Part shown: positions 53,901 to 56,900 of the stretch, piece by piece | Position numbering within the stretch: the stretch's first letter is position 1 | Layout: every line of letters begins with the position of its first letter | From: Styela clava | Taxonomy: Eukaryota | Direction of reading: 5' to 3' | Length of the DNA stretch: 64,000 nucleotides | Assembly (NCBI RefSeq): GCF_964204865.1 | Contig: NC_135256.1 | Span: 15,314,001 to 15,378,000 of the forward strand | Program-made: the position numbers

Positions 53901-56900
53901 TTGTAACGAAGTATAAAAATAATTTTCTTTTATTGTCAGGTTATAACTTGGTAATTGATATCTAGATTGATTTTTGACATAGGAATGACCGTGGTCTTGA
54001 GTTTATTAAAGAGCGCGAAATTTTTTTACAGATACACTTTTCTGCAGAACTCAACCATATAGTATTGTTTAAATTTTATTTGCTTACTTACCTTAATATC
54101 GCCACAAGCATTGACTAAGTTCATTCTGGACAACATATTGTAGTTTCACAAGTTATGTAAACTGTACGAATGCGATGACGTCATAATATAAAAATGTTAA
54201 TCAATGAAAAATTCATGGAATTCGTTGAGAGGCATCCACATCGAGATCAGTGATAGCAGACGATGATATATCTGCTTATCCGTCGTTTCAGTTTCATTGG
54301 AATCTGGATTTTTGGATGGATAGTGCAGCGGAAGCGGTGCTTTATCGGAAATTTGTAGTAAACTTGAAGCACTGTACGAATTTTCGCCGATGCTTAAAGT
54401 ATTCCCTTTCGTTAGTTTTGGTGTTCCTAGTTGGCTGACATCTCCATTAACATATGAATTCGCGCGTTTCCTGACTACTGCATTAAACGTTTTGCGACCC
54501 TGAAAGGTTCCAAATTGTTTGGGCAATATCAAAAGCAATTACTATAGATAGAACATTTTTAAATAGGCCTACAGATATCAAATTGAACATATGATATGAC
54601 CATATACGAAGACTAAATTTTGTTCGATAAACTTATTACTTATGAGAATAAAAAAATATGGCCATGATTAATTAAAGTATTAGTTCTTGAACAATGTTGG
54701 AATCGTTCGTTTTACCCTGGTTTTACATACCAGTTTTACATCACTTTAGTTATCATGTAATCAACTCAAGTGTAAATGTTGTTGACAATCAGCATCATGA
54801 AATAATGGAAAGATATTATTTAACAGTGACATTTCTAGTGAAGAATTGCATCTATTTTATTTTGCCAATAGGTCGTACGCCCACGGAAGTCCGAAATCCG
54901 TGTCTCTCTTATATGGCTCGGCGGTGGGGCGCATCGTGCTAAGCGTTAGGAATACGCGCTCGCCACCGCATCTCTGATTCACTTCGTGGGATCGCAGGTT
55001 CGAATCCTATGCGGGAATGATCATGTGCGAGAGGATTGCTAGACTCCTCGCCGCCGTAGGGTGGGTGGTTCACGTTACCGCTGGTCGGTTGCGCTTCCTC
55101 CACAATCAAGGCCATGCTTCCGAAAAAAATAAAATACCTGGCTATCTAATCCCATACCCGACCTGGACTGATAATCGGACGAGAGGCCGTGGTTCGCCAT
55201 ATGATTAGGTATTATCGGCTTTCCTCTCCCCCTGGATAAATATGTAAATCCTACCGTATCCTATATCCATTTTTTGTGTATTTCCATCGTTGATTTCCAT
55301 CCTATTACAGTATTAATCACGTGATCATGAATTTTCAGGTGATTCCCCTATACAGGGTGAGAATTTTGTTGCGCAAGTTTGTCACTTCTGCTTTGAGTGA
55401 GTTGTTTCATTGTTCAGTTATTGCGCCATATCTTTGAAAAACAGTTTGGATCTAGATAAATCAGTAGGCTATATCGTCTTCAGAAATGATCAATTGTCAA
55501 TTTTATCTACTTATTCTCGTTGGTAAATTTGTGCAAAATGGTTTCCATTGAAGAAGAATTGAATGATATTGAACAAGATTGGGAAGTGAGATATCTTGAA
55601 GAAACTTCTCAAGATCTTCGCTACGTAGTTGAGTTGCTCAATGAAGAAGTCAGTTTAAAAGTTTACATTCCAGGTAAGATGAATACTGAAGAGCCGTTAT
55701 TGCTTATGTTATAATCAATGTTCCCTCTAATTTTTTTTAGTATGTGTGCGCACTTTTTTGGAATCAATCAATTTTATTCGGTCACTCTGATACAAACAAA
55801 ACACAAAACAACAACAAACAAAATACAGAGGACCTGGAGGACGGGCATAACTTAATAAAAAAGTTAAATACGTACAAGTACGTGCCCGTCCCCCAAAAAC
55901 AGAATAAAACAAAAACACGATGTGACATCGGGCAATATCTTATAGATTCAAATTAAAATGTGAGACGTGTATGTGCTTTTCCTATACAGATATATGGATT
56001 AAAGAACACTCGCTGCCGAAAAATGGTGATGCTGTAGGCCTAGTTCAATTATATTGCAAAAATAACACAGTGCAGCAGTGATAGTGACAAATTTTTTTTC
56101 CTAAAAAACAAGCTTGGTAAATGGTTTTGGATGTTCCATAGCAGTCTATGCACAAATCATGGATTGGGGTGTTAGGTTCTTTTGTCGTTTTCGGTTAGTT
56201 CACTTTAAAATCATTGTATCCGTTCCAATGCTTCCAACATTAATATCGAATTTTCCACGAACGACCACCATTCAGCCATTCCAACAGGTGCAGTGATCCC
56301 ATCTTTTCTACGCTGTGTTCCATCATACACGACTAGATTCATAAAAGGATCGAAACGTCGCAATATATTCGTAACAGATCGTCCACCATTTAACTTTAAA
56401 TCCAATCTTTTATCCATAAACTTCTTTAATTCTAGTGGATGGGCTTTGCTCATGTTGATATTGCGCGATACAGATTACAGATACCGAAACATACAACGCG
56501 TAGCATTCACTAGTCTTTTCAAGCTGACACGTCCGCACCCGACGACGGTCTGAACGGAATCCGGAAATAACTAATATTTGTGCAAAAACCAATTAAGAAA
56601 TTTTGGCGTTTTAACCGGGTAATCAATGGGTGGGCCAACAACAAATTTCTCAACCTGCCAACCGAGAACATTGTAACATTACATCGAAATACGTCTGTGC
56701 GCAGTAAATCTATGCGTGTGCGCAGCCTCTGAAAGCTGTGTGCGCGCGCACACGCGCACACTTTAGAGGGAACAATGGTTATAATTATGTCATCAGTGAC
56801 TTACATTTTATGAGCTCTATTTCAAAGTCTGAAAGTGCAAAACAATTTGAAAAGTTCAGATTTGTTTTACAGTTATAGACAGACTAGGAATGATAAACAA

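What the first reader, a model, noticed from the sequence alone, without database searches (positions are those of the whole stretch)
55708..56785. Pack-type hAT transposon carrying a spliceosomal SmG gene copy
Seen: 15-bp TIRs and a perfect 8-bp TSD enclose a full-length intronless SNRPG ORF. About 120 nt of CpG-rich upstream sequence (with an ETS-like TTCCGG) and downstream sequence are included, all in intron 1 of another gene on the opposite strand. Gene-carrying TIR elements are well known in plants (Pack-MULEs) but much less documented in animals. If the loaded element has moved as a unit, it is a gene-duplicating vehicle. It would also place antisense SmG sequence in the host pre-mRNA.
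Basis: partly seen in the sequence, partly recalled or inferred. Interest (0 to 1): 0.75.

Follow-up and report, generated by a model that had tools for sequence, protein, structure and literature searches.

The report
Decayed SmG copy inside hAT-like transposon
A small cut-and-paste transposon in an intron of a sea-squirt gene does enclose a copy of the splicing gene SmG, but the copy is a broken pseudogene, so this is a fairly ordinary piece of genome debris and not a working gene-moving vehicle.

Summary
The structure is real. A perfect 8-bp target duplication (GTTATAAT) and 15-bp inverted ends (14 of 15 paired) bound a 1,062-bp element. Such structures are far above chance: 4 in the window against 3 in all 200 shuffles. 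The window is Styela clava or a very close relative, not human. The element lies 35 nt inside intron 1 of the counterpart of LOC120328512, antisense to it.

The enclosed 80-codon SmG frame is open but not intact. An 8-nt and a 1-nt insertion 25 nt apart push the core of the Sm2 motif out of frame. Seven residues differ from the S. clava SmG protein, several at positions invariant in six tunicate SmGs. The Pfam LSM score falls from 75 to 35 bits. It is a pseudogene.

The rest of the interior is a mosaic that includes a ~200-bp dispersed repeat. I could not settle whether SmG arrived as a processed mRNA copy (slightly favoured) or by DNA-level capture. I also could not tell whether loaded copies exist elsewhere, because no tunicate genome was searchable.

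Gene-carrying TIR elements in animals, hAT included, are already documented (Tan et al. 2021). Interest is low to moderate.

The parts
55708..55715 (.). Left target-site duplication GTTATAAT
   Evidence: Identical 8-mer at 56778-56785. T at position 2 and A at position 7 fit the hAT target pattern nTnnnnAn (pattern as quoted in the PMC10368747 introduction).
55716..55730 (+). Left terminal inverted repeat CAATGTTCCCTCTAA
   Evidence: Its first five bases CAATG fit the hAT terminal motif YARNG (motif as quoted in PMC3014272).
55746..55753 (.). Left subterminal palindromic motif GTGCGCAC, 31-38 nt from the tip
   Evidence: 11 matches with at most 1 mismatch in 64 kb, 6 of them inside this 1.06-kb element.
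55754..55778 (-). AATAAA (55778-55773), short (ATTG)n tail and A6 run (55759-55754) at the 3' end of the dispersed repeat, read on the minus strand
   Evidence: This is the only AATAAA on this strand within the element. The second repeat copy at 7226-7250 has the same AATAAA plus a (GATT)n tail.
55762..55960 (-). Copy of a ~200-bp dispersed repeat, same orientation as SmG
   Evidence: blastn gives 80.4% over 148 nt to 7096-7239. A local alignment extends this to 7020-7239. No TIR partner was found beside the 7-kb copy.
56087..56099 (-). A8 run (56099-56092) overlapping the 8-mer AAATTTGT (56094-56087): a candidate poly(A) remnant plus 3' target duplication of a retrocopy
   Evidence: The same 8-mer lies at 56648-56641. 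Chance is 0.026 for this exact 8-mer and 0.11 if the start may slide. A8 runs on this strand occur at 0.39 per kb. No AATAAA lies within 40 nt before the run.
56211..56453 (-). SmG-derived open frame: 80 codons plus stop, intronless, a pseudogene
56251..56275 (-). Out-of-frame segment. It is bounded by an 8-nt insertion (56275-56268, an imperfect tandem copy of GAATGG) and one extra A in the run 56254-56251. It replaces the Sm2 core.
   Evidence: MVVVRG, identical to P0001 residues 59-64, is read in the +1 frame here. The open frame reads AEWWSFVE instead.
56454..56640 (-). CpG-rich sequence upstream of the ATG (5' UTR and/or promoter of the SmG source), with TTCCGG at 56566-56561
   Evidence: CpG observed/expected 1.25-1.8; window 0.71.
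56641..56648 (-). Upstream copy of the 8-mer AAATTTGT (candidate 5' target duplication of a retrocopy)
56697..56751 (.). Right subterminal cluster of GTGCGCAC-like motifs (56697, 56718, 56740, 56744), 27-81 nt from the tip
56763..56777 (-). Right terminal inverted repeat (minus strand CATTGTTCCCTCTAA)
   Evidence: (1 mismatch to the left TIR).
56778..56785 (.). Right target-site duplication GTTATAAT
55538..55673 (+). Host gene exon 1 (ATG to GT donor; first half of an RWD-like domain)
   Evidence: tblastn of P0121 residues 1-45 at 95.6%. Donor GT at 55674-55675.
55674..58048 (+). Host intron 1 (2,375 nt). The element starts 35 nt after the donor and fills 45% of the intron.
   Evidence: The junction is phase 1: the last base of exon 1 and the first two of exon 2 give Asp, as in P0121.
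58049..58587 (+). Host gene exon 2
   Evidence: 99% identity and 100% coverage to S. clava LOC120328512 isoform X1 (P0121), E 2.4e-106. Also.

Best explanation
This is a dead, non-autonomous hAT-like DNA transposon of 1,062 bp. It has 15-bp TIRs, GTGCGCAC-type subterminal repeats and no transposase. It inserted 35 nt into intron 1 of the Styela clava gene LOC120328512 (or its counterpart in a very close relative), duplicating the 8-bp target GTTATAAT.

Its interior is a mosaic of foreign pieces in one orientation. One piece is an intronless SmG copy with about 190-300 nt of upstream sequence. The other is a ~200-bp dispersed repeat that ends in AATAAA plus a short tail.

The SmG copy is a pseudogene. 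It came from the S. clava-lineage SmG gene and then evolved without constraint. The most likely route of entry is reverse transcription of SmG mRNA and insertion into the element, that is, a nested processed pseudogene. It may have entered together with the retroposon-like repeat as one chimeric insertion.

The element therefore does nothing as a gene vehicle today. Its only predictable effect is that the host pre-mRNA carries about 240 nt of antisense SmG sequence in an intron.

Shown: the TIR/TSD structure, the intron position, the pseudogene state, the mosaic interior. Inferred: the hAT assignment (no transposase is available to test it), the RNA route of entry, the lack of function.
For: Structure:
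- TSD 8 of 8 and TIR 14 of 15.
- 4 such structures in the window against 3 in 200 shuffles.
- 6 of the 11 GTGCGCAC-like sites in the window lie in the element, 5 of them subterminal.
- The TSD fits nTnnnnAn and the left tip fits YARNG (for the consensus).

Organism and host:
- Exon 2 is 99% identical to the S. clava protein P0121.
- All six exon matches lie in order on the plus strand.

Pseudogene state:
- MVVVRG sits in the +1 frame between a +8 and a +1 insertion.
- Relative-rate count: 7 changes unique to the copy against 0 unique to P0001, with P0002 as outgroup (binomial p 0.016). With P0003 as outgroup the count is 6 against 0 (p 0.031).
- P7, G33 and the Sm2 residues are invariant in the six other tunicate SmGs aligned.
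- Pfam LSM scores 34.9 bits over profile positions 2-52 of 66. P0001 and P0002 score 74.8 and 75.4 bits over positions 2-65.

RNA route:
- The whole coding sequence is present without an intron.
- An A8 run lies about 110 nt after the stop. It is followed by AAATTTGT, which recurs 188 nt before the ATG (chance 0.026 to 0.11).
- CpG enrichment ends at about 56150-56100.
- The neighbouring repeat has the same orientation and ends in AATAAA, 13 nt, then A6.
- LINEs are reported as recently active in S. clava (PMC7540406 section 3.1.3).
- 110 retrocopies were reported in Ciona (PMC3136929 Table 1).
- Tan et al. treat intronless copies of multi-exon parents inside TIR elements as retroduplicates and discard them.
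Against: - The retrocopy marks are weak. There is no AATAAA or ATTAAA within 40 nt before the A8 run. A8 runs occur at 0.39 per kb on this strand. About eight 8-mers or longer are shared between the upstream and downstream parts, so one next to an A run is only mildly surprising.
- The upstream sequence is CpG-rich and holds an ETS-like TTCCGG about 110 nt before the ATG. It could be a captured promoter, which an mRNA copy should lack.
- The parental SmG locus was not seen, so I do not know whether it has introns. An unnamed close relative, P0002, has an uninterrupted SmG frame on a 5.6-kb contig. That could mean an intronless parent.
- The frame has stayed open despite two indels. That is what selection for some product would also give.
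- An 8-bp TSD alone also occurs in other superfamilies, for example P elements (recalled). No transposase or second family member ties this element to hAT.
Confidence: 0.5

Rival explanations
1. A true Pack-type hAT. During repair of a break in a hAT element (gap filling or template switching, as in the models of Tan et al. 2021), a DNA segment holding the SmG promoter, coding region and downstream DNA was copied into the element. A fragment of a dispersed repeat came in as well. The loaded element then transposed as a unit to this intron, and the SmG copy decayed afterwards.
For: - A perfect TSD and near-perfect TIRs enclose the whole mosaic.
- CpG-rich upstream sequence with TTCCGG is included.
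- A mosaic interior made of more than one source is what I recall as typical of Pack-type elements.
- The parental gene is not within the window (only one SmG match in 64 kb). In Tan et al., distal location goes with the multicopy, transposed Pack-TIRs.
- A Pack-hAT has a precedent in frog, hAT-N8_XT.
Against: - The copy has no intron. S. clava is reported to have few intron-less genes (PMC7540406 section 3.1.3).
- The A8 run plus repeated 8-mer hint at a retrocopy.
- Captured pieces in animal Pack-TIRs are small (median 224 bp) and rarely whole genes.
- No second loaded or empty family member lies in the window.
- No second S. clava SmG-like protein is among the 120 best of 451 database hits. 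This is weak evidence, because pseudogenes are not annotated as proteins.
Confidence: 0.3
2. The 80-residue frame is a functional, divergent SmG paralogue or a regulatory peptide, kept open by selection. An example would be a variant that competes for Sm-ring assembly. Alternatively, the locus is kept for its antisense RNA.
For: - The frame is open from ATG to stop, and the two indels sum to 9 nt.
- The N-terminal helix and most of Sm1, plus the C-terminal [13 protein letters not shown], are kept.
- Pfam LSM is still above its cutoff: 34.9 against 23.4 bits.
Against: - The strand-4 and RG core of Sm2 is replaced by unrelated residues.
- The invariant Gly33 of Sm1 is Arg and the invariant Pro7 is Leu.
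- The copy changes faster than its parent, 7 against 0.
- Only six codons lie between the two indels, so an open frame by luck is not unlikely (roughly one chance in three for the second indel).
- The exact protein and any close variant are absent from the 5.8-billion-cluster protein set (best hit 81%).
Confidence: 0.07
3. The element is real but not a hAT. It belongs to another superfamily that makes 8-bp duplications (P-element-like or other). Alternatively, the TIR/TSD pair is a chance arrangement around an ordinary SmG pseudogene.
For: - No transposase and no other family member could be examined.
- The right tip CATTG departs from YARNG at one position.
- The TSD is AT-rich and partly palindromic, which makes chance matches easier.
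Against: - Chance is very unlikely: 0 of 200 shuffles gave a structure with at least 14 of 15.
- The TSD fits nTnnnnAn, the left tip fits YARNG, and subterminal repeats are present.
- Two other elements in the window with 8-bp TSDs start CAGGG and TAGGG, so hAT-type elements are common here.
Confidence: 0.1

Closest known systems
Animal Pack-TIRs (Tan et al. 2021, Nat Commun 12:4280, PMC8277862), e.g. Pack-hAT-N8_XT of Xenopus tropicalis and Ssk-FB4 of Drosophila
   Same: Host-gene sequence lies between the two ends of a TIR transposon. The superfamily is hAT in the frog case. The location is intronic and an antisense relation to the source gene is possible.
   Different: - Here the insert is a whole intronless coding sequence, not a fragment of a few hundred bp.
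- Tan et al. would have filtered such a case out as a retroduplicate if the parent has introns.
- Copy number and the parental locus are unknown.
- The coding capacity is already lost, unlike Ssk-FB4.
- No tunicate is mentioned in their main text (0 occurrences of 'Ciona' or 'tunicate'). Their supplementary species tables could not be read.
Pack-MULEs and Pack-TYPE elements of plants
   Same: A non-autonomous TIR element with a mosaic interior of host-derived sequence from more than one source. It could yield antisense or small RNA against the parent gene.
   Different: - The superfamily differs: Mutator with 9-11 bp TSDs (recalled) against a hAT-like element with an 8-bp TSD.
- Plant cases are DNA-level captures that often keep introns, and many are multicopy (36% in rice, as quoted).
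Processed (retro)pseudogene nested in a transposon
   Same: An intronless full-length coding sequence, an A run after a short 3' UTR, a candidate flanking 8-nt repeat, frameshifts and unconstrained substitutions. Small, highly expressed housekeeping genes such as SmG are frequent sources of retrocopies in mammals (recalled; one search found no paper holding 'SNRPG' among the 8 listed).
   Different: - The poly(A) signal is missing, the A run is only 8 nt, and the repeat is short.
- A possible promoter is included.
- The retrocopy is framed exactly by intact transposon ends.
hAT MITEs (e.g. Mar of Drosophila, PMC3517528, search listing only; Ds1-type elements)
   Same: Short TIRs, 8-bp TSD, subterminal repeats, no coding capacity of its own, intronic location.
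   Different: At about 1.06 kb it is larger than a typical MITE, because of the inserted SmG and repeat sequences. Family size is unknown.

Membership tests
hAT superfamily (non-autonomous member) | 8-bp target-site duplication | tested here: met
   GTTATAAT on both sides, 8 of 8.
hAT superfamily (non-autonomous member) | Target pattern nTnnnnAn | tested here: met
   T at position 2 and A at position 7 of GTTATAAT. The pattern is as quoted for Hermes in PMC10368747.
hAT superfamily (non-autonomous member) | Terminal motif YARNG at both tips | tested here: inconclusive
   The left tip CAATG fits. The right tip CATTG has T at the R position. The motif is as quoted in PMC3014272.
hAT superfamily (non-autonomous member) | Short TIRs with subterminal repeats (transposase binding sites) | tested here: met
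   15-bp TIRs. Five GTGCGCAC-like motifs lie 27-81 nt from the tips, and 6 of the window's 11 such sites are in the element. Binding itself was not tested.
hAT superfamily (non-autonomous member) | Shares its termini with an autonomous element encoding a hAT transposase | not testable with these tools
   No eukaryotic genome collection was available. No matching TIR lies elsewhere in the window. A weak Spin-doc zinc-finger match at 47462-47740 is unrelated in position.
Pack-TIR / Pack-type transposon | Non-transposon host sequence between the two TIR ends | tested here: met
   An SmG-derived frame lies inside the TIRs.
Pack-TIR / Pack-type transposon | Parental copy elsewhere that is not flanked by the transposon | not testable with these tools
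   A parental protein exists (P0001, S. clava), but its locus could not be read. It is not in this window.
Pack-TIR / Pack-type transposon | DNA-level capture, not an intronless copy of a multi-exon parent (filter of Tan et al.) | tested here: inconclusive
   The copy is intronless and has weak retrocopy marks. Parental gene structure is unknown.
Pack-TIR / Pack-type transposon | Moved as a loaded unit (several copies, different TSDs) | not testable with these tools
   There is one copy in 64 kb. The genome was not searchable.
Processed pseudogene | Lacks the introns of its parent | tested here: inconclusive
   There is no intron in the copy. The parent's introns are unknown.
Processed pseudogene | Poly(A) tract at the 3' end, preceded by a poly(A) signal | tested here: inconclusive
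   An A8 run lies at 56099-56092. There is no AATAAA within 40 nt before it. The background rate of A8 runs is 0.39 per kb.
Processed pseudogene | Own target-site duplication flanking the insert | tested here: inconclusive
   AAATTTGT occurs at 56648-56641 and 56094-56087. Chance is 0.026-0.11.
Functional Sm protein (SmG) | Intact Sm2 motif (strand 4, Arg-Gly, strand 5) | tested here: not met
   MVVVRG is out of frame and AEWWSFVE is read instead. The Pfam match stops at profile position 52 of 66.
Functional Sm protein (SmG) | Intact Sm1 motif with its conserved glycines | tested here: not met
   G33R, and also G29N, at columns where all six other tunicate SmGs have Gly.

The most novel reading that the evidence does not exclude
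A hAT element in a chordate picked up a complete snRNP core-protein gene together with its promoter at the DNA level. It then carried the gene to new sites as a loaded unit, that is, transposition-dependent whole-gene duplication. This copy is one decayed member of a multicopy family. Because it lies antisense in an expressed intron, it feeds double-stranded or small RNA that acts on the parental SmG gene.
Probability: 0.12. Interest if true: 0.55.

Novelty: new member of a known kind. Interest (0 to 1): 0.25.

Why it matters
If loaded copies of this element proved to be multiple and mobile, it would be a rare animal case, and to my knowledge the first in a tunicate, of a cut-and-paste transposon duplicating a whole gene. 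My literature searches found no tunicate case. It would also give a handle on how such captures arise.

As it stands, the finding is one more dead transposon with a dead gene copy inside an intron. It is useful mainly for annotation: the 80-codon frame should not be called an SmG gene. It is also one example for surveys of retrocopies and Pack-TIRs in ascidian genomes, which are rich in DNA transposons (23.81% in S. clava).

Tried and rejected
- Other family members in the window. The TIR searched with up to 3 mismatches gave 5 matches, against 2.63 expected; 12 of 100 shuffles reached 5. Only the two ends of this element were close matches. The 3-mismatch site at 52078 has no partner and no subterminal motif, so I rejected it as chance.
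- blastn of the whole element against the window found only the 7096-7239 repeat copy.
- I looked for a TIR partner that would make the 7-kb repeat copy an 'empty' relative of the element. None was found. A faint resemblance of the sequence after that copy to the TIR was seen by eye only and is not claimed.
- A 9-mer (TGCGCACAC) is shared by the two subterminal regions. I considered it as a target duplication of a larger retro-insert and rejected it as evidence. The motif is palindromic and is part of the extended inverted repeat.
- Rfam over the whole window gave 0 matches at gathering score, so the repeat is not a known RNA-derived family there.
- I considered looking for a tunicate spliced-leader sequence at the 5' end of the copy, which would prove an mRNA origin.
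- I considered reading the 8-nt insertion as a transposon excision footprint. Its letters do not fit a simple duplicated target with complementary changes, so it is left as an observation only.
- No structure prediction, complex prediction or atlas search was run. The sequence evidence for loss of Sm2 seemed sufficient.

Not checked:
- No S. clava or other tunicate genome DNA could be searched. The open contig collection holds only bacteria and archaea, and I did not scan it.
- Supplementary files of papers are closed. Supplementary Data 1 of Tan et al. 2021 (species list and all Pack-TIRs) and the repeat tables of the S. clava genome paper may bear on whether tunicate Pack-TIRs or this family are already listed.
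The window holds no N.
- The host gene model was examined exon by exon. I made no joined, spliced sequence of my own and searched with none. The only whole protein compared with the window was the named database protein P0121.

Papers:
- PMC8277862: abstract and passages.
- PMC7540406: passages and section 3.1.3.
- PMC10368747: passages.
- PMC3014272: one passage.
- PMC3136929: abstract, passages and Table 1.
- All other papers named: search listings only.
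Full report
**What the window is.** The 64-kb window has no N and is 65.6% A+T. The SmG-like frame is closest to the annotated SmG protein of the ascidian Styela clava (P0001, 81% identity; 451 hits in all, the best 120 listed). A neighbouring exon is 99% identical over its full length to S. clava LOC120328512 isoform X1 (P0121, E 2.4e-106). Six exon matches of P0121 lie in order on the plus strand at 83-98% identity. The window therefore comes from S. clava or a very close relative, probably another haplotype or assembly than the annotated one. 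It is not human, and nothing was withheld on that ground.

**Checking the observation.**
GTTATAAT stands at 55708-55715 and 56778-56785. Inside it lie the 15-nt ends, 55716-55730 and 56763-56777, paired at 14 of 15 positions.
- I scanned the window for a perfect 8-bp direct repeat directly enclosing a 15-nt inverted repeat with at least 13 of 15 paired, up to 5 kb apart. There are 4 such structures (3 with at least 14 of 15). The 200 Markov-1 shuffles held 3 in total, and none with at least 14 of 15. The structure is not chance, and elements with 8-bp duplications are common in this genome.
- The 8-mer fits the hAT target pattern nTnnnnAn (pattern read in PMC10368747).
- The left tip CAATG fits the hAT terminal motif YARNG (read in PMC3014272). 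The right tip CATTG misses it by one base.
- Both ends carry copies of a palindromic motif, GTGCGCAC, 27-81 nt from the tips. Of the 11 sites in the window with at most one mismatch, 6 are in this 1.06-kb element. Subterminal repeats of this kind serve as transposase binding sites in hAT elements.
- There is no transposase. The element is non-autonomous, and the hAT assignment rests on these end features alone.

**The host gene.**
- Exon 1 runs from an ATG at 55538 to a GT donor after 55673. Exon 2 starts after an AG at 58049 and ends at 58587.
- The junction is in phase 1 and gives the Asp that P0121 has at that place.
- Examined exon by exon, Pfam gives a weak RWD match in exon 2 (E 0.008, below the curated cutoff) and a clear MJ1316 domain in the next exon (E 3.4e-19).
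- I did not build or search a joined spliced model.

**The SmG copy is not intact.**
- The frame 56453..56211 is open for 80 codons and aligns end to end with SmG proteins.
- The alignment has a three-residue surplus exactly at the Sm2 motif, where the copy reads AEWWSFVE and all others read V-V/I-R-G.
- Translating the three frames shows why. The residues MVVVRG, identical to P0001, are present but in the +1 frame. They lie between an 8-nt insertion (an imperfect tandem copy of GAATGG, 56275-56268) and one extra A in the run 56254-56251.
- Two frameshifts 25 nt apart thus cancel each other. The frame stays open, but strand 4 and the Arg-Gly of Sm2 are lost.
- Outside that segment the copy has seven replacements against P0001: P7L, G29N, V30I, G33R, D43Y, E47Q and T53I. 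With P0002 as outgroup all seven are unique to the copy and none to P0001 (binomial p 0.016). With P0003 the count is six to none (p 0.031).
- P7 and G33 are invariant in the six other tunicate SmGs aligned.
- Intact SmGs score 74.8 and 75.4 bits on Pfam LSM over profile positions 2-65 of 66. The copy scores 34.9 bits, and the match ends at position 52.
- The copy shares D18, R48 and L72 with P0001 against P0002 and P0003, so it arose within the S. clava lineage and then evolved without constraint. It is a pseudogene whose open frame is most simply luck.

**The rest of the interior.**
- blastn of the element against the window gave one further match. A local alignment extended it: 55762-55960 on the minus strand is about 80% identical to 7020-7239 on the plus strand.
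- This ~200-bp dispersed repeat lies in the same orientation as SmG. In both copies it ends in AATAAA followed by a short (GATT)n-type tail. In the element an A6 run follows 13 nt after the AATAAA, directly before the left subterminal motif. That looks like the 3' end of a retroposon.
- No inverted-repeat partner accompanies the 7-kb copy, so it is not an empty relative of the element.
- Rfam finds nothing in the window.
- The element is therefore a mosaic: right end, SmG with upstream sequence, about 130 nt of unknown origin, dispersed repeat, left end.

**How SmG got in.** Two routes remain.

*RNA route.*
- The copy is intronless and holds the whole coding sequence.
- About 110 nt after the stop there is an A8 run followed by AAATTTGT, and the same 8-mer lies 188 nt before the ATG. 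This is the layout of a processed retrocopy with a poly(A) remnant and its own target duplication.
- The chance of that 8-mer recurring in the upstream part is 0.026, or 0.11 if the start of the repeat may slide.
- CpG enrichment also stops near 56150-56100.
- Against this route: there is no poly(A) signal before the run. A8 runs occur at 0.39 per kb on this strand. Several other 8-mers are shared by chance.

*DNA route.*
- The CpG-rich upstream sequence with TTCCGG could be a captured promoter.
- A mosaic interior is typical of Pack-type elements (recalled).
- The parent gene is not nearby.

*Background.*
- DNA transposons make up 23.81% of the S. clava genome, LINEs are reported as recently active, and intron-less genes are few (PMC7540406 section 3.1.3).
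- Ciona has 110 reported retrocopies (PMC3136929 Table 1).
[quoted passage not shown] These are mostly single-copy small fragments, and intronless copies of multi-exon parents were filtered out as retroduplicates (PMC8277862).

I put the RNA route at about one half, DNA capture at about three in ten, and leave the rest to other readings.

**Copy number.** Whether the loaded element ever moved as a unit cannot be told from one copy. The window has no second TIR pair, no second SmG match and no empty relative. The protein set holds no second S. clava SmG-like protein among the best 120 hits, and does not hold this 80-residue product itself. That is weak evidence, because pseudogenes are not annotated as proteins.

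**Comparison with what is known.**
- As a structure it is a non-autonomous hAT-like element with host-gene sequence inside. It resembles the animal Pack-TIRs of Tan et al. 2021, which include a multicopy Pack-hAT in frog, and the Pack-MULEs of plants.
- It does not pass the membership test for a Pack-TIR in their sense, because DNA-level capture and a clean parental locus were not shown.
- It does not pass the test for a functional Sm protein, because both Sm motifs are damaged.
- It passes most end-feature tests for hAT.
- My searches found no report of a gene-carrying TIR element in a tunicate. The main text of Tan et al. does not mention Ciona or tunicates, but their supplementary tables could not be read.

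**Verdict.** It overreaches in three ways. The gene is dead. Capture as opposed to a nested retrocopy is unproven and slightly disfavoured. The phenomenon is already documented in animals. It is a new member of a known kind, of low to moderate interest.

Noticed in passing
window 4960-5420; 42556-43323; 60112-61201: Three more elements have perfect 8-bp target duplications and 15-nt inverted ends. The first has TSD CGGTACTG and ends starting GGGTC (14 of 15). The second has TSD GTATATAT and ends starting CAGGGGTGG (14 of 15). The third has TSD ATTATGGT and ends starting TAGGGCTG (13 of 15). The last lies in intron 2 of the same host gene. The two that start CAGGG and TAGGG look hAT-like. None shares sequence with the SmG-bearing element.
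   Followed up: partly
window 7020-7239 (+) and 55762-55960 (-): A ~200-bp dispersed repeat at about 80% identity ends in AATAAA plus a (GATT)n-type tail. It looks like the 3' end of a LINE or SINE. The family is not identified.
   Followed up: partly
window 56268-56275 (-): The 8-nt insertion that breaks the SmG frame is an imperfect tandem copy of the adjacent GAATGG. It could be replication slippage or the footprint of an excised element that makes 8-bp duplications. The letters do not fit a simple footprint.
   Followed up: partly
window 47462-47740 (-): An ORF gives a weak match to the Spin-doc zinc finger (PF18658, E 8e-4, 19.5 bits, below the 27.3-bit cutoff). It may be a remnant of a transposase-derived gene. 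Four neighbouring ORFs gave no Pfam match.
   Followed up: no
window 23104-24033 (-): Histone PARylation factor 1 (HPF1, PF10228, E 1.6e-72) is covered over 230 of 251 profile positions by one uninterrupted 309-codon frame. This gene is largely or wholly intronless here, unusual in a genome said to have few intron-less genes.
   Followed up: no
window ~26600-41000 (+); 43349-45166 (-); 13504-13848 (+); 50345-50569 (+): Neighbouring genes:
- the largest subunit of RNA polymerase II, with its long run of CTD heptads at 39.2-41 kb (named from the translated frames, no family search);
- a GPN-type ATP_bind_1 GTPase;
- an LMBR1-like membrane protein;
- a troponin.
   Followed up: no
protein P0002: An unnamed, intact 77-residue SmG of a close relative is recorded on a 5.6-kb contig as one uninterrupted frame. 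Either that contig is a transcript or SmG is intronless in that species. The second case would weaken 'intronless' as a sign of retroposition here.
   Followed up: no
window exons of LOC120328512 (55538-63961): The host exons are 83-98% identical, not 100%, to the annotated S. clava protein. The window therefore comes from a different haplotype or assembly, or from a sister species.
   Followed up: no
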